Positions 2,915 to 14,383 of a DNA stretch of 39,639 nucleotides are shown one piece after another. Below the pieces are notes generated by a model. It searched no databases. It saw only the letters and a program-made list of their open reading frames with translations, and was not told where the DNA came from. The stretch spans positions 1 to 39,639 of the forward strand of contig JAZSIN010000022.1 in assembly GCA_045533845.1 (NCBI GenBank). Direction: 5' to 3'. The position numbers and the translations under genes were made by a program. This stretch comes from Eubacteriales bacterium (GTDB lineage: Bacteria; Bacillota; Clostridia; Oscillospirales; CAG-272). How positions within the stretch are numbered: the stretch's first letter is position 1; the number at the start of each line of letters is the position of its first letter.

Positions 2915-3193
2915 TTTTCGCTTGTCCTTTCTGTCACTTACAAAAATCCTGCAAGGATTTTCCTTTGCCGTCATTATACCGCAGAGAGGCCGCGAAAACG
3001 CTCGAATACGGCGCGGCGTATTCTTGTCAAACCGCGAAGAACGGACGGTATACGGGGCGTATTTTTGCATAGTCCGTCGGTTCTTTTCTTATGATATACA
3101 CCCGTCCGCGCAAAAAAAGGAGAACGCCCCCGACCGTTCCCGCTTTTCGTCGAACGATTTTTTCAGGAAACAGGAATATTTTTCGTTTTTCTC

Positions 3194-3222
3194 TTTACAA
3201 AGCGGTTTCTTTCCTATATAAT
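3194..3222 (+). promoter_or_regulatory. Sigma-A type promoter (TTTACA-17-TATAAT) for the SLOG/DUF1273 gene
   Basis: tttaca at 3194-3199, a 17-nt spacer, tataat at 3217-3222. It sits about 37 nt upstream of ATG 3259. Confidence 0.55.
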
Positions 3223-3258
3223 ATTATAAGAAAAACGAACCGTGAAAGGAGGACATCG

Positions 3259-3744
3259 ATGCAAGACCCCAAAACGATATGCTGCTTTACGGGGCACCGA
3301 GCCGTCCCTGCTTCTCACGTCAGCCGCCTTTACGAGCTACTCGACGAGGAGATCCTTTTCTTATATAACAGGGGCGTCCGCACCTTTCGTGCAGGTGGTG
3401 CAATCGGCTTTGATACGATCGCCGCGCTCCGTGTCCTCTATCTCAAGTCACAAGGCTACGATGTCACGCTCTCCCTGATCCTTCCCTGCCGCGATCAAGC
3501 GAGCCGTTGGCCGAGAAGCGCCGTTCTCGACTACAACTTCATTCTGTCGCGAGCCGACTCGGTGACGTACGTTTCGGAGACCTACAACCGCTTTTGCATG
3601 CTGCAACGCGATCGTGCGCTTGTTGACGGGAGCGGATACTGCATCTCCTACCTGACCGAAAACCAAGGTGGGACCGCCTATACGGTCTCCTACGCCTTGA
3701 AGAACGGACTCGAGCTGATCAATCTCGGCGAGTGTTTCCTGTAA
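3259..3744 (+). CDS. SLOG-fold DUF1273 (YpsA/YoqJ-like) family protein
   Basis: AAAGGAGG RBS at 3246-3253, then ATG 3259. N-terminal CFTGHR motif and GGAIGFD glycine-rich Rossmann-like motif, both typical of DUF1273. About 161 aa. Confidence 0.6.
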   Translation: MQDPKTICCFTGHRAVPASHVSRLYELLDEEILFLYNRGVRTFRAGGAIGFDTIAALRVLYLKSQGYDVTLSLILPCRDQASRWPRSAVLDYNFILSRADSVTYVSETYNRFCMLQRDRALVDGSGYCISYLTENQGGTAYTVSYALKNGLELINLGECFL

Positions 3745-3765
3745 GCCCGAGCATAATAACAAAAG

Positions 3766-3794
3766 AAGAGCCCTGCGAAATTCGCAGGGCTCTT
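3766..3794. terminator. Bidirectional rho-independent terminator between convergent genes
   Basis: aagagccctgcgaa / ttcgcagggctctt, a 14-bp stem with a 1-3 nt loop. It is flanked by an A-run upstream and a T-run downstream, between the stops at 3744 (+) and 3812 (-). Confidence 0.8.
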
Positions 3795-3811
3795 TTCAGA
3801 TCTTATTTTCG

Positions 3812-6397
3812 TTATGCGCGGGAGCCGGGGCGGCGGATCTCACGGAGCTTTGCTTCCTGCTCCGCAGAAATGCGCGCGATCTCTTCCTCTCTCTTCTTCG
3901 TATTGATGCGGTGTCTTACCGTGAAGAATACGATAGCAGCAATCAGAAGGACCGAGCCCGTGACCACACCGACCACGATCCAGATGTTACGGATGTGGGT
4001 GCGGTACTGCTTCGTTCCCTTGAGGTAGCAGTTTACGAATCCCGCAGGAGCGTAGTAGTTACCCGTGGAATCGGTCAGCATATCGTCGTTGACCAGCACA
4101 GCGTTCTTGTTGTAAATGATCGGGATGACGGGCATCTGCGAAAGGAGGTATTCCTCTGCGGCGTGCAGAAGCTCCGCTCTCTTCTCGATGTCCTTTTCGG
4201 CGAAGATGTCTTCCATCATCTTGTTGTAGGTCTCATCAGAGAAGCCCGTGATATGGGTTGCGGGGATATAACGAGGCTCGCCGTATTCGTCGAAGTTCTG
4301 CATATCCATACCCATGCCCGAGAAGAGGGTCGCGAAGGGTGCGAGAACGCCGAATGCGTCGACAGAATAGGAAACCATATCCATAGCGAGAATCTCGTAG
4401 TCGCCTGCAACGAGGGCCTCGAGCCACATATCGTCCTTAACGTCCGACAGAAGCTCCTCGGTCGTCGTCCAGAAGTGCTCGTTGTCGACCGGTCTCTTGG
4501 GGTCGAGCTCAACGATGAAGCCGACAGATTCCCAAGCCGCCTTGACCGTGGTTGCGATCATCTCGTGGACCTCGTCGTACGACGCGTAGGAGAGCGTCAG
4601 AACGTAGTCCTTCGGATCGATGTCGGTCTTCTTCAGGGTCTCCTGTGCCGCCGCAAGATCGTCGGTCGCGAGGAGGTAATTTGCACCGTTCTCACGGAAG
4701 GTCTTCTTCGCAGAGGTCGAATTGAAGACTCCGGGAGGCACGAGCGCGCCTGCCGCCTCTGCAAAGACAGCCGCCTTTGCGATCGTTTCGCGGTTGATCG
4801 CCTGCGAAAGCGCAACGCGGATATTTAAGTCGGACAGAATGTTCTCGCCGAGAACGGGAAGTCCATCTTCACCGGTATAGATCTTCTTGCCCTCCTCGGT
4901 GAAGTAGATGAGCTTGCCGTTTTCGTCGTACTCGTTTTCATAACGGATCGGTCTTCCGTTTGCACCCGTCGTGATGATGTCCATCGTCTCGGGATTAAAC
5001 TGATACTGAAGGCCTGCCTTGTCGTAAAGCATCGGAATGCCGTTCTCGTCATACGAGACCCAGCTGTATCTTACGAGCGCGTTCTGATTCAAGTAGTACG
5101 CGTGCGTGGAAAGACCGTTCGTGACGGTAGCGGAATCCGCGTAGTCCGAGCGAACCGAAAGCGGAATATCGCCGACGTAGAAGATCTCCTCGTTTTCATA
5201 CGCCTCCATCAACTCCGCGTCGGTCATGCTGTAATCGATGATCAGACGGTACGGGATAACGACCGTGTCCACCTTCCAGTTGTCCTTGTCGGCATCCTTG
5301 AAGTAGTAGGAGTTACGCTCGAGAACGAGCTTCGGGGAGTTCTGGGGGGTCGTCGCGTAATCGGAGACCACGCCGCGAACCACCTCGCAGGTATTTCTGA
5401 TCTCATTGAACTTTGCAGGATCCTTCGCCTCATAGTCCGCCATCGTCAGGGGAGAGTACGCGCACGTCACGCCGTTCTCGTTGACGAAGTAGTAAACGCC
5501 CTTCTCGAGCTTTACGAGAGCCTCGGGCTCGGTCGCGTCCTGTACGTAGTAGCAGTAGAGAAATTCTCCGTTTTCGTTCAGAAGGTACTTGCCGTTGTCA
5601 TCCTTTACCGGATCGTCGGGGTATCTTGCATCACGAAGCTTGAAGGGACCCGAGCCGGGCATCGTTGCGCCCTTCTTCGCCCAGTCGTTGTAAAGACGGA
5701 TCTTCTTCTTGACCTCTTCTCCGGTCTGCGGATCGGTACCGAGGACGATCTCGTAGTACGAGCTCTTCGTCGCAATGTTCTCTCTCAAAGGAGCAAGCGC
5801 GTAGCTCGTCAAATTGCGCAGGAACTGGTTGATATCGATCGGTCCCTCGAAGAAAACCTCGACGAGCTTGTCGCTCGGCGCGGAAAGTCCGATGCTGTCG
5901 ATCGAAACGTCACCCTGATTTGCGAGACGCGCGTTCTTGATGTCGAACAGAAGGCACGCCGCACCGTAGGAGGAGTCGACCTCAATGACACGCTTCCAGG
6001 AGTAAACGAAATCGTTTGCGGAAACGTAGGTGCCGTCGCTCCAATAGGTCTCGTCGATATAGAGGGAGAGCTTATACTCATCCTTTTCGAGATCCTCAAC
6101 ATATGTATACTTCTTGATCAGGTTGCTCTTAAGGCTTCCCTTTTCATCAAGATAAAAGGTCGGCTCGTACAGAAGGCTGATGATCTTCATCGCCGCCTCG
6201 TTGTTATATGCATTGGCAGGGTCGAAGTCGTAGATCATATCAGTCAGATACATTGAAATCTGACCGCCCTTCAGCTCCTCCTCCTCTTCCTCCGTCAGTA
6301 TCTCCTCTTTCTTCTCCTCGAACTGGAAACTGCAGGATGCAAAGCAGGACAGCAGCATCAGAAGGCAAAGCGTCAAAGCAAAAAAGCGCTTCATCAT
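3812..6397 (-). CDS. ABC-transporter family-5 (peptide/oligosaccharide, OppA/DppA-like) solute-binding protein; oversized, with an N-terminal lipoprotein-like signal and a C-terminal TM anchor
   Basis: Signal peptide MMKRFFALTLCLLMLLSCFASCSF. SBP_bac_5-like core (LLYEPTFYLDEKG..., WSDGTYVSANDFVYSWKR). C-terminal helix IWIVVGVVTGSVLLIAAIVFFTV followed by a basic tail. GGAGG RBS. 861 aa. Confidence 0.75.
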   Translation of the reverse strand: MMKRFFALTLCLLMLLSCFASCSFQFEEKKEEILTEEEEEELKGGQISMYLTDMIYDFDPANAYNNEAAMKIISLLYEPTFYLDEKGSLKSNLIKKYTYVEDLEKDEYKLSLYIDETYWSDGTYVSANDFVYSWKRVIEVDSSYGAACLLFDIKNARLANQGDVSIDSIGLSAPSDKLVEVFFEGPIDINQFLRNLTSYALAPLRENIATKSSYYEIVLGTDPQTGEEVKKKIRLYNDWAKKGATMPGSGPFKLRDARYPDDPVKDDNGKYLLNENGEFLYCYYVQDATEPEALVKLEKGVYYFVNENGVTCAYSPLTMADYEAKDPAKFNEIRNTCEVVRGVVSDYATTPQNSPKLVLERNSYYFKDADKDNWKVDTVVIPYRLIIDYSMTDAELMEAYENEEIFYVGDIPLSVRSDYADSATVTNGLSTHAYYLNQNALVRYSWVSYDENGIPMLYDKAGLQYQFNPETMDIITTGANGRPIRYENEYDENGKLIYFTEEGKKIYTGEDGLPVLGENILSDLNIRVALSQAINRETIAKAAVFAEAAGALVPPGVFNSTSAKKTFRENGANYLLATDDLAAAQETLKKTDIDPKDYVLTLSYASYDEVHEMIATTVKAAWESVGFIVELDPKRPVDNEHFWTTTEELLSDVKDDMWLEALVAGDYEILAMDMVSYSVDAFGVLAPFATLFSGMGMDMQNFDEYGEPRYIPATHITGFSDETYNKMMEDIFAEKDIEKRAELLHAAEEYLLSQMPVIPIIYNKNAVLVNDDMLTDSTGNYYAPAGFVNCYLKGTKQYRTHIRNIWIVVGVVTGSVLLIAAIVFFTVRHRINTKKREEEIARISAEQEAKLREIRRPGSRA

Positions 6398-6653
6398 TTT
6401 TGGGAATTCCTCCTCGTGAAAATAGGTTCTACGGATATCTCATATCTCAAAACAAGCATATCTATTCATAGTATCAGTTATTATAACACAAAAGCGTCAA
6501 AGAATCAACGATTTTCCGCAAGGTAACATAATATTCGGATGAATGCACAATTCGTTTTTTGAAAATATGTGCATTTTCACAAGACCGTCCCGCAGAGTCC
6601 CGCCGCTTCGCGTTTTTTTGCCGTTCCCCACGCGTCTTCCTCTCCCCTTCTTT

Positions 6654-6682
6654 GAATATTGACCGCTTCTCTGCGCAATACT
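6654..6682 (+). promoter_or_regulatory. Candidate forespore (sigma-F/G-like) promoter upstream of gpr
   Basis: GAATA (6654-6658), 17 nt, then CAATACT (6676-6682). This resembles the GNATR-N17/18-CATNNTA pattern but does not match the -10 exactly. Confidence 0.3.
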
Positions 6683-6703
6683 CAAGTCGGAGGTGATACA
6701 GCT

Positions 6704-7684
6704 ATGAAGAAAAAAGAAGCAACGGATAGAAAGACCGAGGCTGAGGGACCCACGCGCCCATGTGACACCGCGCGCTTTCTCAGGACCGACCTTGCCTGCG
6801 AGGTCCCCGATCCCGAGGCGCTGAAGCACGGGACGGGCGCGTCGTATCGCGAATACCGCCGCGGACGGCTTTCGGTCGCCCGATTACAGATCGAAGATAA
6901 GGCAGGGGAAGCGCGCTTCGGGCGCGAGATCGGCACCTACGTTACGGTCACCACGGGACCGATCCTGCTCCTCTCCCCCGAGGAGGTCGAAACACTGACG
7001 GAGATCCTCGTGACCGAGCTTCGGCAGATGGTGGAGCAGCTGACGGGTCAGCCGATCGGTGAGTCGCTCCGCGTTCTCGTCGCAGGGCTTGGAAACGCGC
7101 ATCTGACAGCAGACGCGCTCGGTCCCGAGGCAGTCCGAACCCTCCCCGTCACAAGACACCTCCGCGGCATCGACGATCCTGCACTTTTGAACGAGGGGAA
7201 GCGGTATGCGTGCATTTCCGCCATCTCGCCCGGCGTGCTTGCGGACACAGGAATCGAAACACGCGAATTGATCCGCGCAGCCATAGAGCCCGTCCGTCCC
7301 GATCTTCTGATCGCGGTCGATGCGCTTGCGGCAAGGAGCTGTGAGCGGCTCGCCGCCACCGTTCAGCTTTCGAGCACGGTAATCCGTCCGGTTTCGGGTG
7401 TCGGGACCGCGCGCGAGGCACTAAACCGCGAATCGATCGGCTGTCCTGTGATCGCGATCGGCGTTCCCACCGTCGTTGATTCCTCAACGCTCGTCTACGA
7501 CGCGCTCACCGAGGCGGGCGTCCGCGAGAGCGAAATCGACGAAAGACTGCTTCGTGTACTCGAAAACGGAAAGAGCTTTTTCGTTTCACCAAAGGAGATC
7601 GACGCGTTGACGCGAGCGTTCGCACAGCTTATTTCGGGCGTGATCGCCGAAGCACTCTCGGTCAAGCGCGCCCTCGCCACCTAA
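6704..7684 (+). CDS. gpr: Germination protease GPR (spore SASP endopeptidase)
   Basis: Motifs RTDLACE, VAGLGN..TADALGP, ISPGVLADTGIET, AVDALAARS, SGVG, PVIAIGVPTVVD match the GPR family. GGAGGTGA RBS precedes ATG 6704. The ORF is open from TTG 6659. Confidence 0.9.
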   Translation: MKKKEATDRKTEAEGPTRPCDTARFLRTDLACEVPDPEALKHGTGASYREYRRGRLSVARLQIEDKAGEARFGREIGTYVTVTTGPILLLSPEEVETLTEILVTELRQMVEQLTGQPIGESLRVLVAGLGNAHLTADALGPEAVRTLPVTRHLRGIDDPALLNEGKRYACISAISPGVLADTGIETRELIRAAIEPVRPDLLIAVDALAARSCERLAATVQLSSTVIRPVSGVGTAREALNRESIGCPVIAIGVPTVVDSSTLVYDALTEAGVRESEIDERLLRVLENGKSFFVSPKEIDALTRAFAQLISGVIAEALSVKRALAT

Positions 7685-8400
7685 TTGCACCCCGTCCCGC
7701 GAATGACGGATGCGACGGTCCGCAGAAGAATCCTCACGTCGCCGCGAAAAGACAGCGTTCGCGCGTAAACGGCGTCGAGCATCGCCTTCTCCTCTGCCGT
7801 CCGGTCGTCCCTTCCGCTGACCTGTGCAAGTCCCGTAATCCCCGGGCGCAGGTGCGACGCGCCCAGCAACGTGCGCAGCTCCGTGAGATGTGCTTCGCCG
7901 AGGATCACAGGGCGCGGTCCAACGAGCGACATCTCGCCCCTCAGCACATTCCACAGCTGCGGAAGCTCGTCGATCCCCGTACGTCGCAAAAATCGCCCGA
8001 TCCGCGTGAGGTAGCGTGCTCTATAGGTCTCCGAAAGCTCCCTTGACGCGCATTCGGGCGCACGAACCGTCATCGTGCGGAATTTATACACCGTAAAAGA
8101 GGAAAGATCTCTGCCCGTCCGTGTCTGACGGAAGATCGCGGGGCCGTAAGAGTCACACCGTATCCACACCGCGATGAGGAACAGAGGAAGTGCGAGAAGA
8201 AGGAGAAGCACCGCGGAAAGAAGCATGTCGAGGATCCGCTTCACCGGCGCATACGCCGCATATTTACGAAAAGAAACGCCCTCCCCGAGGAGAAGGACAG
8301 CCGTCCGTTCCTCCCCAAGAGAGAACGTTTTTTGTATGGAGGCGGGAATCTCCGCCGCAAAAACAGCGCTGAACTCCCGCGCTTTAATACCGTTTCCCAT
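7681..8400 (-). CDS. Bacterial sugar transferase (polyprenyl-phosphate hexose-1-phosphate transferase, WbaP/EpsL C-terminal type)
   Basis: KRILDMLLSAVLLLLLALPLFLIAV TM helix, GPAIFRQTRTG, YKFRTM, DELPQLWNVLRGEMSLVGPRP. Start is ambiguous (ATG 8400 or GTG 8445). Confidence 0.85.
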   Translation of the reverse strand: MGNGIKAREFSAVFAAEIPASIQKTFSLGEERTAVLLLGEGVSFRKYAAYAPVKRILDMLLSAVLLLLLALPLFLIAVWIRCDSYGPAIFRQTRTGRDLSSFTVYKFRTMTVRAPECASRELSETYRARYLTRIGRFLRRTGIDELPQLWNVLRGEMSLVGPRPVILGEAHLTELRTLLGASHLRPGITGLAQVSGRDDRTAEEKAMLDAVYARTLSFRGDVRILLRTVASVIRGTGCN

Positions 8401-8500
8401 AAGCCAGACACCACCGTAAGAATTATGCGGCAAGGCTTGCCCCACGGCTTTAGTATTCCCGGCAAAAGAAACGCGTATCCAAGGCGGATAAAAAAGGAGA

Positions 8501-9175
8501 TCAGGAGGAGCGCGCCGAAAAGGCCGCGCGGATCTCGTGCATCGTATAGCCGTTTCGCATCAGCGTTGCAACGACCTTCTTCCTTGAGAGCGCGTCCGAA
8601 AGTGCCGCCGCGTACCGTTCCTCGATCAGTCTCCCGCAAAGCTCCACGAAATCAACCTCGTCGAGGTAACGCTCGGCTGATGCAACAGCGTCGGCACCGA
8701 AGCCCTTCTGATAGAGCGCAGCAAGAATGCGATTCCGCCCGCGCAGTCTTTTCACGTGCCGTTCTGCTTCTCTGACGGCATCCCGATCCTCGTCTATGTA
8801 TCCGCGTTTCGAAAGATAACAAGACGCCTCCTCTGCCGTTTCGCGCGCAACACCCTTGCGGCAGAGCTTATTTTCGAGCCCGCGTCGCGTGCTTGCGCCG
8901 AACGCGAGAAGCCGAAGCCCCATACGGACCGCCTCGCTGAACTCCGCCGCCCGTTCAAGGGACAAAAAGGTCGCTTCGTCGATCACGCCCTTCGCAGGAC
9001 GGATCTCCGCATAGCGGTCGAGGAGGAGCGCGAGCTCGCGGACCTCACGCTGTGGCTTGCGATGCGCCCCCGCAGCGCTTTCCGCTACGTCGAAAACATC
9101 CTCGGAAAGCTCCACGCGAATGAGGATTTCCGCCCCACCGTCGCGGGCGGTCATAGATAATACACGGATCTGCAT
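8501..9175 (-). CDS. recX: Recombination regulator RecX (with an extra N-terminal region of about 90 aa)
   Basis: It begins 9 nt after the recA stop. RecX-like three-helix repeats are present (RRGLENKLCRKGV..., YLSKRGYIDE, ILAALYQKGF, VATLMRNGYT). Confidence 0.8.
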   Translation of the reverse strand: MQIRVLSMTARDGGAEILIRVELSEDVFDVAESAAGAHRKPQREVRELALLLDRYAEIRPAKGVIDEATFLSLERAAEFSEAVRMGLRLLAFGASTRRGLENKLCRKGVARETAEEASCYLSKRGYIDEDRDAVREAERHVKRLRGRNRILAALYQKGFGADAVASAERYLDEVDFVELCGRLIEERYAAALSDALSRKKVVATLMRNGYTMHEIRAAFSARSS

Positions 9176-9184
9176 CGCCGATTA

Positions 9185-10321
9185 TCAGAGCCCCACGTCT
9201 CCGTCTGAGCCGAGCATACGGATGTCGAAATCAACCTCGTCGCCGTCCTCTTCAAGCACGAACTCGTCCTCATTGCCCGCTCCGCCGTTTGCGAGCGCGG
9301 CACGGACCTTCTCCTCGACCTCGAGCGCAAGCCCGGGATTGCTCTCCAGCATCTTACGGACCGAATCCTTTCCCTGCCCGATCCGCTCGCCCTCGTACGA
9401 GAACCACGAGCCACTCTTTTTGATGATATCGAGCGAGATCGCATAGTCGATGATCTCGCCGTCGCGGGAGATCCCCTTTCCGTAGAGAATGTCGAACTCC
9501 GCAACGCGGAAGGGCGGCGCCACCTTGTTCTTGACGATCTTACACTTCACGCGGTTGCCGTAGATCTCGGTACCGTTCTTCAGCTGATCGGTCTTGCGGA
9601 TGTCGATACGGACCGACGCATAAAATTTCAGCGCGCGACCGCCCGTCGTCGTCTCGGGATTTCCGTACAGAACGCCTACCTTTTCTCTCAGCTGGTTGAT
9701 GAAGATAACAATCGCGTTGGTCTTCGAAATAATGGCAGAAAGCTTACGCATCGCCTGTGACATCAGGCGCGCCTGCACACCGACCATGCTCTGTCCCATA
9801 TCGCCCTCGATCTCCTGACGCGGAACGAGTGCTGCGACCGAGTCGATGACGACGACGTCGATCGCACCCGAGCGCACGAGTGCCTCGGTGATCTCCAACG
9901 CGTCCTCACCGCAATCGGGCTGAGAAACGAGCAAGTTATTGATGTCAACGCCGAGTGCCTTCGCGTATACAGGATCGAGCGCGTGCTCGGCATCGATAAA
10001 CGCTGCCTCGCCTCCCGATTTCTGTACCTCAGCAATGATATGCAGTGCAACGGTCGTCTTACCCGAGGATTCGGGGCCAAAGATCTCGATGATACGTCCG
10101 CGCGGAACGCCGCCGATCCCGAGTGCGGTATCGAGCGCGATCGATCCCGTATGGACTGCCTGTACCTCCATACGGCTGTTCTCCCCAAGCTTCATGATCG
10201 TACCTGCGCCGTAATCGCGCTCAAGCTGTGAGATCGCAGTCTTCAGCGCCTTGATTTTTGCTTCCTTATCCGCGCCGTTCTCAATCGCTCCTACGTTCTT
10301 CTTACTCGACTTTGTTGCCAT
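9185..10321 (-). CDS. recA: Recombinase RecA
   Basis: Walker [10 protein letters not shown] and the canonical RecA core ([45 protein letters not shown]). ATG 10321 is preceded by an AAAGGAG RBS. The ORF is open to 10390. Confidence 0.97.
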
Positions 10322-10381
10322 TTTAAGTCTCCTTTGTGAACAAATTATTTCGTTGTTGTCTCGAAATTCCATTACGGCTCT

Positions 10382-10410
10382 ATTATACACACTTTTACTC
10401 GACTTGTCAA
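10382..10410 (-). promoter_or_regulatory. recA promoter, perfect sigma-A consensus
   Basis: Minus strand reads TTGACA (10410..10405), 17 nt, TATAAT (10387..10382). It lies about 60 nt upstream of the recA ATG. Confidence 0.7.
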
Positions 10411-10594: not shown

Positions 10595-10972
10595 ATGATG
10601 AAGAAAATCGCAACCGAAAAAGCCCCCGCAGCAATCGGGCCTTACTCGCAGGCGGTCGTTGCAAACGGCATTCTCTACACCTCGGGACAGATCGCGATCG
10701 ACCCGAAGGTCGGCGACATTGTCGCGACAGACATCGAAGGACAGACCGAGCAGGTGATGCAGAACCTCGCGGCGGTCCTTGACGCGGCGGGCTCATCCTT
10801 TGATAAGGCGGTGAAGACCACTTGCTTCCTCGCAGATATCAAGGACTTTGCCGCATTCAACGGCATCTACGGCAAGTATTTTTCATCGAAGCCCGCACGC
10901 TCCTGCGTCGCGGTAAAGGATCTCCCCAAGGGCGCACTCGTCGAGGTCGAGGTCATTGCTCTCGTTGACTGA
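10595..10972 (+). CDS. ridA: RidA/YjgF-family reactive intermediate (enamine/imine) deaminase
   Basis: APAAIGPYSQAV..., LYTSGQIAIDP, KTTCFLADIKDFAAFN, PARSCVAVKDLPKGALVEVEVIA. RBS AAAAGAGG before ATG 10595. Confidence 0.92.
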   Translation: MMKKIATEKAPAAIGPYSQAVVANGILYTSGQIAIDPKVGDIVATDIEGQTEQVMQNLAAVLDAAGSSFDKAVKTTCFLADIKDFAAFNGIYGKYFSSKPARSCVAVKDLPKGALVEVEVIALVD

Positions 10973-10990
10973 TCGCATTTGAACCAAACA

Positions 10991-11020
10991 AAAAATCGGC
11001 TGAAATTCAGCCGATTTTTT
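10991..11020. terminator. Bidirectional rho-independent terminator (ridA / serpin, convergent)
   Basis: aaaaatcggctgaaattcagccgatttttt: a GC-containing stem atcggct/agccgat flanked by an A5 run and a T6 run. Confidence 0.8.
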
Positions 11021-11031
11021 GCTTTATCTGA

Positions 11032-12537
11032 TTATTTCAGGTTATTCACGACCCCGACGAAAAGCGGTAGCCCGACCTCGGAGGTGATCACAAAGAGAAA
11101 TGGACGGTCAACAGTGAATTCGACCTCGTCCTGCGGCGCCGCAGAGCCCGCGGCAAGCATAACCGTATATGCCGCTGCCACAACGCCCTCCTCGTCGATC
11201 GCAACGCGCACACCGTGCTGCACCTCGCTGAGAGCAACGCCGCCCGAGCCTTCACCAAAGAGATGTGAAAAATCCGCGCCGTGTGAAGAAAACACCGACG
11301 TTACGCCCATTTCTCGGATCACGGACGAAAGCTCTTTTTGCGAGGAAACGTCAAACTTGGGAATATGCATCGTGATCTTGCAGTACTGCGACTTTTCCGA
11401 GAGGCTCTGCCTTTCAAGCAGCTCATAAAGATCACTTCCCATAAGCACGTCATCGACCGTTTTCCCCTCATCGGGCAAAACGAAATACATTGAGCCGCCC
11501 TCCGCAAAGGGGAGGGAGACCGCGGAGTATTCTTCACCCCAATAATACTGCCCGAATGATACACGGTTCATATAGTCGCTCAGCACGTCACCCGAAGCAC
11601 CGTGGAAAACACGCTGATCGTTTTCCGCCTCTTCAAACACGTGCTGCCATCTTGCGGTATAATAAACCGTCGTGGCAAGCGCAAATACCGTCTCGGGGTA
11701 CATTTCGAGCGATTCCAGCCCCTCTGAAAGAATGCCTCCCGTCTGCGTATTGATCCAAGCACGAAGCGCCTCGTTATACTCCTCTGAGCCCATTTCTCCT
11801 TGGAAGGAGGATGCGTAATACAGCTCCGCTATCCGCTCTACCGTTTCCGTAACGTAGGAAATATCCTTGTCGAGCCACACCGACGACGCGAGAATGCTGG
11901 TTACTGCACCATCGTCGCAGTAATGCGCGTTCCAGATCGCCCCCGCCGTTATGCGGAGCGACTCGATGCTCTCTTCTCCAAGCACATCAAGGATCTCTCG
12001 TCTGCTCTCTCCCTCGACCGTCTCAGCGAGCATCGCCAGCGCCATATAAATATTCACGGGCGAGCAAAGCACGTTCTCTCCCTCGGAATCACCGAGCATC
12101 GTTCGGACCAGGGACTCAAAAAACGCCGTCGGAAGGCTTTCGAGCGACCGAAACGCTTCTTTCTGTGCGCGTCTCTCCTGCCGCCACACGTCGTAATCCT
12201 TCGACCACTTCTCGTAGTTTTCAACGAGCGAATCTTCCGATGGGTACTGCACCATCGTGGGATATCCTCTCGCCATAAGCGTGAACGGGGCAAGGAGCAC
12301 AGCGTCATATCGAAGATTTGGGTCTACCCGGTTCTGCGTATACCGCCCCGTGGTTTCGGAAAACGGGGATCCCCCGTTCCACGGCTGAAGGAATGCGCCG
12401 ATCAGGATCACAAGAGCGAGCGCGGCTGCAACCGCCGACACAGGGATCCACGGGCGTTTTTTCTTTTTATGCCTCGCGTCGGCAACGTACGCGTCGTCCG
12501 CGTCGCCGATGCGGTCAAATAAATCCTCGGGTTTCAT
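11032..12537 (-). CDS. Membrane-anchored serpin-domain protein: short cytoplasmic N-terminus, one TM helix, a linker, then a serpin domain
   Basis: N-terminus MKPEDLFDRIGDADDAYVADARHKKKKRPW, then TM IPVSAVAAALALVILIGAFL. The C-terminal region carries a serpin hinge and signature, AIDEEGVVAAAYTVMLAAGSAAPQDEVEFTVDRPFLFVI. Strong AAGGAGG RBS. It starts 22 nt after the sigma gene stop. Confidence 0.8.
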   Translation of the reverse strand: MKPEDLFDRIGDADDAYVADARHKKKKRPWIPVSAVAAALALVILIGAFLQPWNGGSPFSETTGRYTQNRVDPNLRYDAVLLAPFTLMARGYPTMVQYPSEDSLVENYEKWSKDYDVWRQERRAQKEAFRSLESLPTAFFESLVRTMLGDSEGENVLCSPVNIYMALAMLAETVEGESRREILDVLGEESIESLRITAGAIWNAHYCDDGAVTSILASSVWLDKDISYVTETVERIAELYYASSFQGEMGSEEYNEALRAWINTQTGGILSEGLESLEMYPETVFALATTVYYTARWQHVFEEAENDQRVFHGASGDVLSDYMNRVSFGQYYWGEEYSAVSLPFAEGGSMYFVLPDEGKTVDDVLMGSDLYELLERQSLSEKSQYCKITMHIPKFDVSSQKELSSVIREMGVTSVFSSHGADFSHLFGEGSGGVALSEVQHGVRVAIDEEGVVAAAYTVMLAAGSAAPQDEVEFTVDRPFLFVITSEVGLPLFVGVVNNLK

Positions 12538-12559
12538 ATATAACCTCCTTCAATCATAT

Positions 12560-13102
12560 TCAAAGGCGCTCGGACTCGAGAACGCGCCGCAGGCGTTCCC
12601 TTGCCCGATACAGTATGGATTTGACCCGGCTTTCGCTGAAGCCGAAGTGATTTGCGATCTCTCGGATCGGCTTACCGTAAAAGTAGCGTAGCAGAAAGAC
12701 GCGTCGATCGCGCTCTCCGAGCTTCGTGAGGAAGCGGTGGAGTGCCTCTTTTGTGAGATCATCCGATTCCCGCTCCTCTGCGGGAAGCACCTCCGAAAGC
12801 TCATCGAGAATGAGCGGGATCTCTCCGCCTCCACGCTTTTCTGCGGTGCGGTAGCGGATGCGGTCGACCGATACCCGCCGCACGAGCTTCCCGAGATAGG
12901 TGCGGAGCTCTGAGGGGCGGTTCGGCGGAATGCTGTTCCAAACCGACAGCCACGTGTCGTTCACGCACTCCTCGGCATCCGCGTCGCTTCCGAGCAGATT
13001 CCGTGCTATGGCGTGACAGTACGAGCCGTATTTCTCCGCCGTTGCATCGATCGCCTGCTCCGACCGTTCAAAATACAGTTCTACGATGTCCTTATCCTCC
13101 AT
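12560..13102 (-). CDS. ECF-type sigma-70 family RNA polymerase sigma factor
   Basis: Region 2 (CVNDTWLSVWNSIP) and a region 4 helix-turn-helix (LLRYFYGKPIREIANHFGFSESRVKSILYRARERL). About 180 aa. GTG 13105 and ATG 13102 are tandem start candidates after GAGGTGG. Confidence 0.88.
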   Translation of the reverse strand: MEDKDIVELYFERSEQAIDATAEKYGSYCHAIARNLLGSDADAEECVNDTWLSVWNSIPPNRPSELRTYLGKLVRRVSVDRIRYRTAEKRGGGEIPLILDELSEVLPAEERESDDLTKEALHRFLTKLGERDRRVFLLRYFYGKPIREIANHFGFSESRVKSILYRARERLRRVLESERL

Positions 13103-13173
13103 CACGCCACCTCGCCTTCACCCTCTACTCGTAAAATTTCCCATTTGGTTGTATTTTATATCGAAAAAGCCTC

Positions 13174-13206
13174 AAAAAAACCCGAAAGAGATTCGTCTTT
13201 CGGGTT
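13174..13206 (-). terminator. Rho-independent terminator of prs
   Basis: On the minus strand: aacccgaaaga, a 6-nt loop, tctttcgggtt, followed by TTTTTTT (plus-strand A-run 13174-13180). Confidence 0.8.
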
Positions 13207-13222
13207 CGTTTATTTTTCTGAT

Positions 13223-14383
13223 TTAATTCTTGAGTTCCATCTTGATCTGACTGCCGGGCTGACTCTCCAGCTCCTTACGGTGACGTTCCATCAGCGCATT
13301 GATGCGGTTGATGGGATTGAGGAGCGTCGAGATCGAGCCGTCGTGGTTCATCGTGTCGATGAAGTACGCCGTGTACTTGCACATATTGACCTCGCAGTAC
13401 CACGGGCGAACAAGCAGCTCGGGCGCACGGTAGACCGTATTGGTCGTAAAGACGCTGGTAATCGTACCGTTCTTATACGCCTCGTCAAACTTCTCGTATC
13501 CGTCGGTGAAGAGACCGAAGGAAGCAAACGCGAAGATACGCTTCGCGCCCTTCTCCTTCAGCTTGCTTGCAACGTCGAGGAGCGATTCTCCCGAGGAGAT
13601 CATATCGTCGACGATGATCGCGTCCTTTCCTGTGAGATCCGCACCGAGATATTCGTGCGCGACGATCGGATTCTTGCCTCCGATCACGACCGAATAGTCT
13701 CTGCGCTTGTAGAACATACCGATGTCGACACCAAGCACCGAGGAATAGTACATACAACGGCTCATCGCGCCCTCGTCGGGCGAAATGATCATCAGATTAT
13801 CATTTTCAAGACGGATGTCGGGCACGGCGCGAACGAGTGCCTTAATCATCTGATATGCAGGACGGACATCGTCGAAGCCCACGAGCGGGATCGCGTTCTG
13901 CACGCGCGGGTCATGCGCATCGATCGTCAGAATATTCGAAACGCCCATCGCGTGAAGCTCCTGGAGCATCAAAGCGCAGTCAAGCGACTCGCGCGAGGAG
14001 CGCTTATGCTGTCTACCCTCGTAGAGCATCGGCATAATGACCGTGATGCGGTGCGCCTTGCCTGCCATTGCGGCAATGATACGCTTCAGATCGGCATAAT
14101 GCTCGTCCGGACTCATCGGGACGGTCATACCGCGCATCTTGTAGGTAACGCCGTAATTGAAAATATCGCAAATGATGTACACGTCGTGTCCGCGCATCGA
14201 CTCGTGAATAAGTCCCTTACCTTCACCCGTTCCAAAACGAGGGCACTCGACGTCAACAACGTAGGAGGCTGATTCTCCCGAGTGGTTTCTCCATTCCTTC
14301 AAGTAGTAATCGACCTGCTTTACGAAGTCCTCGCAGCCCTTCATACCGATGACGCTGAGCTCTGCAACCTGTGTATCACGCAT
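13223..14383 (-). CDS. prs: Ribose-phosphate pyrophosphokinase (PRPP synthetase), long form
   Basis: FGTGEGKGLIHESMRGHDVYIICD, IISPDEGAMSR, and the PRPP-binding loop AIIVDDMISSGES. ATG 14383 has an AAAGGAAC RBS. The ORF is open to 14410. Confidence 0.85.
   Translation of the reverse strand: MRDTQVAELSVIGMKGCEDFVKQVDYYLKEWRNHSGESASYVVDVECPRFGTGEGKGLIHESMRGHDVYIICDIFNYGVTYKMRGMTVPMSPDEHYADLKRIIAAMAGKAHRITVIMPMLYEGRQHKRSSRESLDCALMLQELHAMGVSNILTIDAHDPRVQNAIPLVGFDDVRPAYQMIKALVRAVPDIRLENDNLMIISPDEGAMSRCMYYSSVLGVDIGMFYKRRDYSVVIGGKNPIVAHEYLGADLTGKDAIIVDDMISSGESLLDVASKLKEKGAKRIFAFASFGLFTDGYEKFDEAYKNGTITSVFTTNTVYRAPELLVRPWYCEVNMCKYTAYFIDTMNHDGSISTLLNPINRINALMERHRKELESQPGSQIKMELKN

What the first reader, a model, noticed from the sequence alone, without database searches (positions are those of the whole stretch)
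11032..13102. ECF sigma factor translationally linked to a membrane-anchored serpin in the anti-sigma position
**Gene arrangement.** The gene directly downstream of an ECF sigma factor, after a 22-nt gap and with its own AAGGAGG RBS, is normally the cognate anti-sigma factor. Here it encodes these parts in order:
- a cytoplasmic segment of about 27 aa (MKPEDLFDRIGDADDAYVADARHKKKKRPW);
- one TM helix;
- a linker of about 90 aa;
- a full serpin domain facing outward.

**Serpin features.** The hinge is Ala-rich (EEGVVAAAYT), as in inhibitory serpins. I counted P17 to P1 from the hinge and also counted back from the DRPF signature. Both place P1-P1' at Ser-Ala.

**Proposal.** A protease-trapping serpin fused to a sigma-linked membrane anchor could be a protease-sensing signalling module. 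Covalent capture or cleavage of the reactive-centre loop would be the input to an ECF sigma. I do not know of such a system being described.

**Caveat.** The cytoplasmic segment is far shorter than canonical ZAS/RskA anti-sigma domains. The pairing may be only transcriptional, or may use a non-canonical short sigma-binding peptide.
Basis: partly seen in the sequence, partly recalled or inferred. Interest (0 to 1): 0.7.

Follow-up and report, generated by a model that had tools for sequence, protein, structure and literature searches.

The report
Serpin-tipped anti-sigma factor with ECF sigma
A gut Clostridia bacterium pairs a stress-type transcription factor (an ECF sigma) with a membrane protein that has the position and layout of its inhibitor and carries a complete protease-trapping serpin on the outside, so the cell may be able to sense hostile proteases and respond by making more of the trap.

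Summary
An ECF sigma gene (12560-13102, minus strand) is followed after 22 nt and an AAGGAGG site by a 501-aa protein. That protein has a 30-aa cytoplasmic head, one TM helix, a linker, and a full inhibitory-type serpin (P1-P1' Ser465-Ala466).

Comparative data support the anti-sigma reading.
- In 80 genome loci, all 45 serpins with this N-terminal motif have the same sigma clade directly upstream, with overlapping stop and start codons.
- None of 35 serpins with other N-termini (25 lipoprotein, 6 plain TM, 4 with a second motif) has it (p = 2e-23).
- The same motif plus TM occurs on many unrelated ectodomains. In all five such proteins looked up, and in the 80 nearest metagenomic relatives of the sigma, this sigma clade and a single-pass protein sit adjacent in the same order.
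- A conserved ECF-type promoter precedes the sigma genes.
- Four serpins are instead fused to a different N-terminal motif behind a different ECF sigma.

Neither Pfam nor NCBIfam recognises the module, and I found no paper linking serpins to sigma control.

Sigma binding and protease-triggered release are inferred, not shown. I rate it a new variant of a known kind (ECF sigma/anti-sigma signalling), interest 0.72.

The parts
13179..13206 (-). Terminator hairpin of the upstream prs gene. It insulates the sigma operon from read-through.
   Evidence: The terminator scan lists this hairpin on the + strand. Read on the minus strand it is AACCCGAAAGACGAATCTCTTTCGGGTT followed by a run of T (sequence). 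prs is identified.
13110..13153 (-). ECF-type promoter-like motif: TACAACC, 14 nt, TTTTACGAGTAGAGGGTGAAGG. It has an AAC-containing -35 element and a CG-containing -10 element.
   Evidence: EM motif found upstream of 42 sigma genes. In leave-one-out scoring, 39 of 42 sites exceed the 99th percentile of control windows, and the window's own site does too at 8.2 bits. This is the best hit on either strand of the 39.6-kb window. No sigma-70-type promoter was found in 10800-13400.
12560..13102 (-). ECF (group 4) sigma factor gene, 180 aa from the ATG at 13102. An alternative GTG start lies at 13105.
   Evidence: Pfam r2, r4_2 and Sigma70_ECF, plus TIGR02937 at 1e-27. The sequence scores below the curated cut-off of every NCBIfam ECF subfamily listed. 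The Lys89-Arg90 pair of the window's EKRGGGE (residues 88-94), between the r2 (24-87) and r4 (120-172) matches, is conserved across the clade; the same stretch reads DKRGGGE, AKRGGGE or QKRREGE in sigmas next to non-serpin partners.
12544..12550 (-). Ribosome-binding site AAGGAGG of the serpin gene, inside the 22-nt intergenic spacer 12538-12559.
   Evidence: Read directly.
12472..12537 (-). Codons 1-22: the cytoplasmic N-terminal motif MKPEDLFDRIGDADDAYVADAR, the proposed sigma-binding peptide. The basic cluster HKKKKR (residues 23-28) follows.
   Evidence: Family consensus is M-K-x-E-(K/D)-L-(F/L/Y)-(D/E)-A-(I/L)-G-x-(I/V)-D-(D/E)-x-(L/Y)-(I/V)-x-(E/R)-A. The AF2 model gives two short helices at 3-10 and 15-21 with pLDDT about 55-59. 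The motif is strictly linked to the sigma.
12388..12447 (-). Transmembrane helix, residues 31-50 (IPVSAVAAALALVILIGAFL). It contains an Ala-rich core conserved across the family.
   Evidence: Ala37 is invariant and Ala38 is over 90% conserved in alignment A2. The model shows a helix at 33-49.
12304..12387 (-). Juxtamembrane linker, residues 51-78. It is predicted disordered and is the candidate site-1 cleavage region.
   Evidence: pLDDT is below 50 for residues 51-76. Length and sequence vary across the family.
12130..12303 (-). Conserved N-terminal extension of the serpin, residues 79-136, with the YP.M..YP...W element. Homologues with lipoprotein anchors share it.
   Evidence: Y92, P93 and W118 are invariant, and Y98 and P99 are at least 90% conserved. 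pLDDT is 83-93, with helices at 101-130.
11041..12123 (-). Serpin domain, residues 139-499.
   Evidence: PF00079, E = 5e-60. The model has pTM 0.79. Foldseek against PDB finds alpha-1-antitrypsin, antithrombin and tengpin at E about 1e-30. phmmer against PDB finds conserpin at 2e-34.
11128..11193 (-). Reactive-centre loop, residues 449-470 (EEGVVAAAYTVMLAAGSAAPQD). P1 Ser465 and P1' Ala466 are encoded at 11140-11145.
   Evidence: Alignment to the alpha-1-antitrypsin loop. The family hinge consensus is EEGVTAAAYTVM and P1 is Ala, Ser or Gly. pLDDT is below 50 for residues 463-468. The codons TCT GCG were read.
10989..11021 (.). Bidirectional terminator hairpin shared by the serpin gene (minus strand) and ridA (plus strand).
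   Evidence: 15-bp stem flanked by an A-run and a T-run.

Best explanation
**What it is.** This is a self-contained two-gene operon with its own promoter and terminators. It encodes an autoregulated ECF sigma factor and its cognate single-pass anti-sigma factor. The extracytoplasmic domain of that anti-sigma factor is an inhibitory-type serpin.

**Proposed mechanism.**
1. At rest, the roughly 25-residue cytoplasmic head (two short helices, then a Lys/Arg cluster, then the TM helix) holds the sigma at the membrane. This would resemble the two-helix clamp of class II anti-sigma domains.
2. Outside the cell, the serpin traps serine proteases that prefer small P1 residues (Ser, Ala or Gly), such as elastase-like or subtilisin-like enzymes.
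3. When protease load is high, the ectodomain is lost through a cut in the disordered juxtamembrane linker. The cut could come from excess uninhibited protease, or could follow the conformational change of a consumed serpin.
4. A site-2 protease cleaves the Ala-rich TM stub, and cytosolic proteases remove the remaining peptide.
5. The freed sigma transcribes its own operon from the conserved ECF-type promoter. This replaces a single-use inhibitor in proportion to how fast it is consumed.

**Shown.** The gene architecture, the serpin and sigma identities, the topology, the strict co-inheritance of motif and sigma, the modular exchange of ectodomains, and the conserved promoter motif.

**Inferred.** Sigma binding by the peptide, the proteolytic cascade, and protease as the signal.
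For: 1. **Identity and anatomy.**
2. **Co-inheritance in 80 species-level genome loci.** All 45 serpins with the motif plus TM have a same-clade sigma directly upstream; phmmer E-values are 1e-29 to 1e-55, apart from one copy cut by a contig end. Stop and start codons overlap in every case. Of 25 lipoprotein-type serpins, 6 plain-TM serpins and 4 with a second N-terminal motif, none has this sigma. Fisher p = 1.7e-23.
3. **The module is generic.**
   - A 53-position N-terminal profile finds 4750 protein clusters at E <= 1e-3.
   - Ten full-length non-serpin hits from the top 150 were scanned against Pfam: four matched a beta-propeller, RHS/YD, Big_14 or DUF4367 domain, one had only sub-threshold hits, and five matched nothing.
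   - All five non-serpin proteins looked up have a gene directly upstream that overlaps their start by 4 nt. Four of those genes clearly belong to the same sigma clade (180-273 bits). The fifth is a 30-residue fragment at a contig end that still matches the clade model (26 bits, E = 2e-9).
   - All 80 nearest metagenomic relatives of the sigma carry the clade sigma. 79 are followed by an ORF and one locus ends first. 63 of those ORFs are 150 aa or longer; none is a serpin, and 50 of the 63 match the motif model.
   - In a sigma tree, serpin-coupled sigmas interleave with the others.
4. **Independent second fusion.** Four serpins carry a different N-terminal motif (MNRYKKANxxIHxP) and sit, with a 4-nt overlap, behind a different 160-aa ECF sigma.
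5. **Promoter.** A conserved motif, TGTAAC(C)-N13-TTTTGCGACT, lies 50-75 nt before most of the sigma genes. In leave-one-out scoring, 39 of 42 sites beat the 99th percentile of controls. In the window it is the top hit, and no sigma-70 promoter is present.
6. **No third partner.** No other gene is conserved next to the pair. The closest relative is syntenic.
7. **The serpin is extracytoplasmic.** Paralogues carry lipoprotein signal peptides on the same conserved ectodomain.
8. **Precedents.** RsiV is an anti-sigma factor that directly binds a hostile host enzyme, lysozyme, and is then degraded by regulated proteolysis (PMC9044953). Two-helix class II anti-sigma domains exist (PMC6101532).
Against: - No experiment or complex model shows that the peptide binds sigma. 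Its helices are predicted with low confidence (pLDDT 55-59).
- A cytoplasmic head of about 25-30 residues is much shorter than a class I anti-sigma domain. From memory, it is also shorter than the cytoplasmic part of CnrY, the class II example.
- Loop cleavage leaves the serpin body attached to the membrane, so the link between protease capture and sigma release needs an extra step that has not been identified.
- The sigma-coupled serpins do not differ from the lipoprotein-anchored ones in hinge or P1. Nothing in the serpin domain itself marks it as a sensor.
- The window's own promoter copy is weak (13.9 bits; 8.2 bits in leave-one-out scoring).
- The regulon beyond the operon is unknown.
Confidence: 0.6

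Rival explanations
1. The pair is a true sigma/anti-sigma pair, but the serpin is only cargo or an effector. The signal would be something other than protease, such as general envelope stress or a ligand bound by a non-inhibitory serpin. The serpin domain would then be just one of many interchangeable extracellular domains with no role in sensing.
For: - The same sigma and N-terminal chassis carries dozens of unrelated ectodomains.
- Serpin-coupled sigmas do not form one clade.
- Hinge and P1 are the same as in lipoprotein-anchored paralogues.
Against: - In the best-studied modular families, the variable ectodomain is the sensor. RsiV binds lysozyme directly. I recall from memory, without checking it here, that RsgI ectodomains bind polysaccharides.
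- The serpin ectodomain was recruited to two different sigma-linked N-termini independently, which suggests selection for that coupling.
- The hinge is of the canonical inhibitory type.
Confidence: 0.2
2. The pairing is transcriptional only. The sigma drives serpin expression, and the N-terminal motif has another role, such as membrane insertion, sorting or oligomerisation. The sigma would be controlled by something else.
For: - The cytoplasmic head is very short, and no anti-sigma family model matches it.
- In the window the genes are separated by 22 nt and the second has its own ribosome-binding site.
Against: - The motif is cytoplasmic and occurs only with this sigma clade: 45 of 45 serpins with it against 0 of 35 without.
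- It also occurs next to this sigma clade on unrelated ectodomains.
- Stop and start codons overlap in all 45 other pairs.
- No third conserved gene is present that could serve as the anti-sigma.
- Homologous serpins reach the surface through ordinary lipoprotein or TM anchors without the motif, so export does not require it.
Confidence: 0.12
3. The adjacency is a chance or assembly artefact, or the serpin ORF is mis-called.
For: None found.
Against: - The arrangement recurs in 45 independent genome loci, and the closest relative is syntenic.
- The Pfam match is full-length and the structure model is confident.
Confidence: 0.01

Closest known systems
SigV/RsiV (Bacillus subtilis, Clostridioides difficile)
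   Same: - An ECF sigma with a co-transcribed single-pass anti-sigma factor.
- The ectodomain directly binds a hostile host enzyme, lysozyme.
- Binding leads to a site-1 cut at the TM-ectodomain junction, then a site-2 cut by RasP, and sigma release.
- The response raises resistance to that enzyme (PMC9044953).
   Different: - RsiV's ectodomain is not a serpin and binds reversibly.
- Here the ectodomain is a suicide-substrate protease inhibitor.
- The sigma belongs to another clade, scoring below the cut-off of every NCBIfam ECF subfamily listed.
- No cleavage step has been shown for this system.
Class II anti-sigma domains (CnrY-CnrH; NepR)
   Same: A minimal anti-sigma element made of two helices that clamp the sigma (PMC6101532). 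CnrY is also a small membrane protein. That last point is from memory and was not checked here.
   Different: - No sequence similarity was detected.
- The predicted helices here are shorter (about 8 and 7 residues) and have low confidence.
- The phyla differ (Clostridia against Proteobacteria).
- Here the element carries a large ectodomain.
SigI/RsgI arrays of cellulolytic clostridia
   Same: A conserved N-terminal anti-sigma element plus one TM helix, carrying interchangeable extracellular sensor modules, in Clostridia (abstracts of PMC6582324 and PMC6056542).
   Different: - The sigma here is a two-domain ECF sigma, not a SigI type.
- The RsgI_N Pfam model does not match.
- The cytoplasmic element is about half as long.
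Protease-triggered ECF cascades (RseA/DegS/RseP; RsiW/PrsW/RasP)
   Same: Single-pass anti-sigma factors destroyed by sequential proteolysis. I recall from memory that the TM or juxtamembrane cut leaves an Ala-rich end that directs the stub to cytosolic proteases. Here the TM helix has a conserved Ala-rich core.
   Different: In those systems a dedicated bacterial site-1 protease senses the stress. Here the ectodomain is itself a protease inhibitor, and the attacking protease may be foreign.
Bacterial serpins of gut and thermophilic Firmicutes and Bifidobacterium (siropins, tengpin, B. longum/B. breve serpin, miropin)
   Same: - Inhibitory-type serpins of prokaryotes, several of which inhibit elastase-like host proteases (PMC8201313; PMC5127057).
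- Tengpin is among the best structural matches.
- B. breve serpin expression is autoregulated by a two-component system, according to the title of the paper cited in PMC8201313.
   Different: - None of these is reported to be fused to a sigma-linked membrane anchor.
- In Bifidobacterium, regulation runs through a separate two-component system, not through the serpin protein itself.
- I did not test whether siropins belong to this subfamily.

Membership tests
Serpin superfamily (PF00079) | Full-length match to the family profile | tested here: met
   Residues 139-499 match profile positions 6-369 of 370. E = 4.8e-60, 204 bits against a cut-off of 27.
Serpin superfamily (PF00079) | Serpin fold with an exposed reactive-centre loop | tested here: met
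   AF2 model: pLDDT 81, pTM 0.79, loop residues 463-468 at low confidence. Foldseek E about 1e-30 to alpha-1-antitrypsin, antithrombin and tengpin, with TM-score on the target of 0.72-0.88 among the top 50 hits.
Inhibitory serpins | Hinge consensus: P17 Glu, P15 Gly, small residues at P12-P9 | tested here: met
   The hinge is E449-E-G-V-V-A-A-A-Y-T. The family consensus EEGVTAAAYTVM is the same in sigma-coupled and lipoprotein forms.
Inhibitory serpins | Forms a covalent, SDS-stable complex with a target protease | not testable with these tools
   This needs recombinant protein and protease assays.
ECF (group 4) sigma-70 factors | Only regions 2 and 4, about 180 aa | tested here: met
   Sigma70_r2 at residues 24-87 and Sigma70_r4_2 at 120-172. 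Also matches Sigma70_ECF and TIGR02937 at 1e-27. No region 3 or 1.1 match.
ECF (group 4) sigma-70 factors | Autoregulated promoter with an AAC-type -35 element and a CG-type -10 element | tested here: inconclusive
   A conserved motif of that form lies upstream of 39 of 42 sigma genes. The window copy is the best hit in the window but is weak. Use of this promoter by this sigma has not been shown.
ECF (group 4) sigma-70 factors | Membership of a curated ECF subfamily | tested here: not met
   Every NCBIfam subfamily or equivalog model listed scores far below its cut-off. ECF Hub group assignment could not be tested.
Class I anti-sigma domain (ZAS, RskA, RseA-type) | Cytoplasmic three-helix bundle plus a fourth helix. 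I recall it as about 80-90 aa, often with HxxxCxxC; that size and motif were not checked here. | tested here: not met
   Only 30 residues precede the TM helix, and they contain no Cys and a single His. No anti-sigma Pfam or NCBIfam model matches at E < 0.1.
Class II anti-sigma domain (CnrY/NepR) | Two-helix clamp around sigma | tested here: inconclusive
   Two short helices are predicted at 3-10 and 15-21 with pLDDT of only 55-59. No complex could be modelled with the tools available.
RsgI-type anti-SigI factors | RsgI_N domain next to a SigI-type sigma | tested here: not met
   The RsgI_N model does not match. The sigma has a canonical region 4.
Membrane anti-sigma factors controlled by regulated intramembrane proteolysis | Single-pass, N-in C-out topology, encoded directly after the sigma | tested here: met
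   Positive-inside charge bias. Lipoprotein-anchored paralogues of the same ectodomain. Adjacency in 45 of 45 loci.
Membrane anti-sigma factors controlled by regulated intramembrane proteolysis | [quoted passage not shown] | not testable with these tools
   This needs interaction, reporter and degradation assays.

The most novel reading that the evidence does not exclude
A serpin works as a signal receptor. Irreversible capture of an extracellular, probably host or competitor, serine protease by the membrane-anchored serpin would be converted into release of an ECF sigma factor through loss of the ectodomain and intramembrane proteolysis. That would make it a suicide-substrate sensor that reports its own consumption.

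It would do so through a previously uncurated anti-sigma element of about 25 residues. In gut Clostridia that element serves thousands of sigma/anti-sigma pairs with interchangeable sensor domains.
Probability: 0.35. Interest if true: 0.85.

Novelty: new variant of a known kind. Interest (0 to 1): 0.72.

Why it matters
- **Prokaryotic serpins.** Their role is described as enigmatic because bacteria are thought to lack the proteolytic signalling networks that serpins regulate in animals (PMC8233489). A serpin wired directly to a transcription factor would give these proteins a regulatory role and offers a testable model.
- **ECF signalling.** It would add a new sensing principle, an irreversible enzyme trap used as the receptor. 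It would also add a very short sigma-linked N-terminal module that current domain libraries miss. That module marks a very large family: 4750 clusters at 50% identity.
- **Gut microbiology.** The carriers are abundant Oscillospiraceae and Lachnospiraceae. Related gut serpins inhibit neutrophil elastase and proteinase 3, which are associated with inflammatory bowel disease. A protease-inducible surface serpin would bear on how commensals survive inflammation.
- **Synthetic biology.** The module could serve as a protease biosensor.

Tried and rejected
- **Anti-sigma family models.** Pfam and NCBIfam gave no match for the window protein, four type-C serpins or twenty non-serpin partners.
- **Rfam.** A scan of the whole window found nothing.
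- **Promoter regex.** A strict regular expression for the promoter caught only 15 of 42 sites. I replaced it with an EM motif and leave-one-out scoring against controls.
- **Short-profile word search.** The word-indexed protein search with the 50-aa N-terminal profile returned only short fragments and no names. The exhaustive representative search was the informative one.
- **Serpin tree.** A neighbour-joining tree of serpin ectodomains with N-terminal types mapped on was blurred by my own regex misclassifying long N-termini. I use it only to say that 29 of the 40 sequences my regex classed as lipoprotein forms fall in one pure clade.
- **ECF classification paper.** Its main text does not mention serpins, and its supplements are not held. 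I could not assign an ECF Hub group.
- **Conserved neighbours.** A search for neighbouring genes such as a protease or a third regulator found none.
- **Other promoter copies.** A scan of the window for further copies of the promoter motif found nothing convincing.
Full report
**1. The observation**

Two ORFs lie head to tail on the minus strand.
- The first is 12560..13105 from a GTG start. The family consensus favours the ATG at 13102.
- A 22-nt spacer, ATATGATTGAAGGAGGTTATAT, follows. It contains AAGGAGG at 12544-12550.
- The second is 11032..12537 and encodes 501 aa.

The first ORF is an ECF-type sigma factor. It matches Sigma70_r2, Sigma70_r4_2 and Sigma70_ECF, and TIGR02937 at 1e-27. It scores below the curated cut-off of every NCBIfam ECF subfamily listed.

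The second ORF matches the serpin profile PF00079 over residues 139-499 at E = 5e-60. Residues 1-30 end in HKKKKRPW, and residues 31-50 are hydrophobic. Six of the ten residues before the helix are Lys or Arg, while the thirty residues after it are net neutral. This indicates N-in, C-out.

P17 is Glu449. Ser465-Ala466 aligns with Met358-Ser359 of the alpha-1-antitrypsin loop.

**2. Structure**

I modelled the protein with AlphaFold2, using a 41-sequence alignment. Mean pLDDT is 81 and pTM is 0.79. The model shows:
- two short helices at residues 3-10 and 15-21, with low confidence;
- a TM helix at 33-49;
- a disordered stretch at 51-76;
- a confidently modelled helical extension at 79-135;
- a complete serpin body with a flexible exposed loop.

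The nearest solved structures are conserpin, alpha-1-antitrypsin, antithrombin and tengpin.

**3. The serpin family and its anchors**

The protein search returned more than 2000 homologues, mostly from Clostridia MAGs and mostly 450-530 aa. Their N-termini fall into distinct types, all on the same conserved ectodomain with the YPEMAPYP...W element. The two commonest are:
- the motif seen here, followed by a basic cluster and a TM helix;
- lipoprotein signal peptides.

The lipoprotein forms show that this ectodomain works outside the cell.

Hinge and P1 are the same in both types. The hinge is EEGVTAAAYTVM, and P1 is Ala, Ser or Gly.

**4. Is the sigma link real?**

A scan of one genome per species returned 80 loci. 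I scored every ORF in them with the window sigma, classified the serpin N-termini, and corrected my regex by eye.

| Serpin N-terminus | Loci | Same-clade sigma directly upstream |
|---|---|---|
| Motif plus TM | 45 | 45 (one copy truncated by a contig end) |
| Lipoprotein | 25 | 0 |
| Plain TM | 6 | 0 |
| Second motif (type C) | 4 | 0 |

One further locus (L051) is cut at the serpin's N-terminus and could not be classified. L054 carries two serpins, so 80 serpins were classified in all.

- Fisher's exact test gives p = 1.7e-23.
- Stop and start codons overlap in all 45 pairs. The overlap is 4 nt in 38 of them.
- The window's 22-nt gap is the exception. Its closest relative (69% identity) sits in the same recO-mutS2-prs-sigma-serpin-ridA context and has the 4-nt overlap.
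- No other gene is conserved next to the pair.

**5. The N-terminal element is a general module**

- A 53-position profile of the motif plus TM was run against 1.84 billion representative proteins. It found 4750 clusters at E <= 1e-3.
- Among the best 150 hits, 56 are serpin-like. The rest are fragments or proteins with other ectodomains: a beta-propeller, RHS/YD repeats, Big_14, DUF4367, and several with no Pfam match.
- I looked up five of those non-serpin proteins. Each has a gene directly upstream that overlaps its start by 4 nt.
  - Four of those genes score 180-273 bits on a model built from the serpin-coupled sigmas, which is as high as the serpin-coupled sigmas themselves.
  - The fifth is a 30-residue fragment at a contig end. 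It still matches the clade model at 26 bits (E = 2e-9).
- I then searched metagenome contigs with a sigma alignment, which gave the 80 nearest relatives.
  - All 80 carry the clade sigma. 79 are followed by an ORF, mostly with a 4-nt overlap, and one locus ends first.
  - 63 of those ORFs are 150 aa or longer, and none is a serpin.
  - 50 of the 63 match the motif model. Most of the other 13 show the same pattern by eye.
- In a neighbour-joining tree, serpin-coupled sigmas interleave with the others. Mean identity is 0.45 both within the serpin-coupled set and between the two sets.

The sigma and the short N-terminal element therefore form a chassis on which ectodomains have been exchanged repeatedly.

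The motif consensus is M-K-x-E-(K/D)-L-(F/L/Y)-(D/E)-A-(I/L)-G-x-(I/V)-D-(D/E)-x-(L/Y)-(I/V)-x-(E/R)-A. Neither Pfam nor NCBIfam recognises any of the partner proteins I scanned as an anti-sigma factor.

**6. A second, independent fusion**

Four serpins (L020, L053, L061, L075) begin with MNRYKKANxxIHxP, followed by a TM helix. Each sits, with a 4-nt overlap, behind a different 160-aa ECF sigma.

The same ectodomain has thus been recruited to two different sigma-linked anchors. That argues the coupling is selected for, rather than accidental.

**7. Promoter and operon limits**

An EM search upstream of 42 sigma genes found the motif TGTAAC(C)-N13-TTTTGCGACT-TAT-AGTGAAAGG. It lies 50-75 nt before most of the start codons.
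- Its form matches an ECF promoter, with an AAC-type -35 element and a CG-type -10 element.
- In leave-one-out scoring, 39 of 42 sites exceed the 99th percentile of control windows.
- The window copy (13110-13153) is the best hit in the 39.6-kb window on either strand, but it is weak at 13.9 bits.
- The region contains no sigma-70-type promoter.
- Hairpin terminators lie on both sides, at 13179-13206 and 10989-11021.

The operon is therefore insulated and probably autoregulated.

**8. How it probably works**

*Shown:* the architecture, the topology, the co-inheritance, the modularity and the promoter motif.

*Inferred:*
- The cytoplasmic head sequesters the sigma. The closest structural precedent is the two-helix clamp of class II anti-sigma domains.
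- The protein is destroyed by sequential proteolysis, as RsiV is after it binds lysozyme. The conserved Ala-rich TM core fits that mode, but this part of the argument rests on my recollection of RseA and RsiW.
- Loop cleavage alone cannot shorten the ectodomain, so a cut in the disordered linker (residues 51-76) is needed. Two triggers are possible. Excess uninhibited protease could cut the linker. Alternatively, the conformational change of a consumed serpin could expose the linker.

My confidence that this is a sigma/anti-sigma pair is about 0.8. My confidence that protease is the signal is about 0.4-0.5.

**9. Comparison and novelty**

Full-text searches found no paper that links the two. 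I searched for serpin with anti-sigma, with sigma factor, and with extracytoplasmic function.
- The main text of the ECF reclassification paper does not mention serpins.
- A serpin phylogeny paper calls the role of prokaryotic serpins enigmatic.
- The only known serpin regulation in gut bacteria that I found is a separate two-component system in Bifidobacterium breve.

The system belongs to a known kind: an ECF sigma with a membrane anti-sigma factor. Its sensor domain has no precedent that I could find, and its cytoplasmic element is uncurated. I classify it as a new variant of a known kind.

**10. Context**

The window is core chromosome of a spore-forming member of the Clostridia. It carries SpoIIE, Gpr, RecX, RecA, RidA, Prs, MutS2, RecO, Era and IleS. 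Homologue sources point to gut Oscillospiraceae and Lachnospiraceae. I did not determine the species.

Noticed in passing
L020:3447-5407, L053:3315-5275, L061:2649-4558, L075:3324-5221: A second class of sigma-coupled serpins. The N-terminus is MNRYKKANxxIHxP plus a TM helix, encoded with a 4-nt overlap behind a distinct 160-aa ECF sigma (signature WGDxVWRLALxRT). Pfam finds no anti-sigma model in them.
   Followed up: partly
L054:1759-4434: Two serpin genes in tandem. The first has a plain TM anchor and no sigma. It is followed by a clade sigma (3232-3825) and a motif-type serpin with a long acidic/Ala-rich cytoplasmic insert; the contig ends inside this second serpin.
   Followed up: partly
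window 13110-13125 and upstream regions of L001-L080 sigma genes: Just downstream of the -10-like element, most loci share GGTGAAAGG(G/C)C. It could be an extended promoter or discriminator element, or a conserved 5' leader. In the window it overlaps the sigma's ribosome-binding region.
   Followed up: no
window 12304-12387 (residues 51-78); also P0003-P0009: The closest relatives of the window protein share a juxtamembrane linker motif, ETTGRYxP..(V/I)(D/E)P, that the rest of the family lacks. It lies in the predicted disordered stretch and could be a recognition or cleavage site.
   Followed up: no
serpin homologues P0013-P0120 and loci L005-L077: Many family members have AYA(I/V)AEA just before the YPEM element. 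That gives two Ala-x-Ala motifs of the kind signal peptidase cuts in RsiV, sometimes only about 10 residues after the TM helix. The window protein lacks them (LMARGYPTM).
   Followed up: no
window 12560-13102 (sigma residues 88-94); alignment A3: The sigma clade has a conserved basic Lys-Arg pair (window EKRGGGE, residues 88-94) between regions 2 and 4; the Gly run after it is not conserved among the serpin-coupled sigmas. It also has a conserved RRYWY-like stretch at the start of region 4 (LRYFY in the window). Both are candidate clade signatures or contact sites.
   Followed up: no
L081:2071-3397 (minus strand): Convergent with a clade sigma/anti-sigma pair lies a second pair from a different ECF clade. 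Its 285-aa single-pass partner has yet another N-terminus. These genomes appear to carry arrays of such pairs.
   Followed up: no
window 10989-11021: An almost perfectly symmetric 15-bp hairpin flanked by an A-run and a T-run. It serves as a bidirectional terminator between the convergent ridA and serpin genes.
   Followed up: yes
window 272-10390: The neighbouring genes are sporulation and recombination housekeeping genes: SpoIIE-like phosphatase, an 861-aa family-5 solute-binding protein, germination protease Gpr, a sugar transferase, RecX and RecA. The sigma-serpin cassette therefore sits in core chromosome, not in a mobile element.
   Followed up: partly
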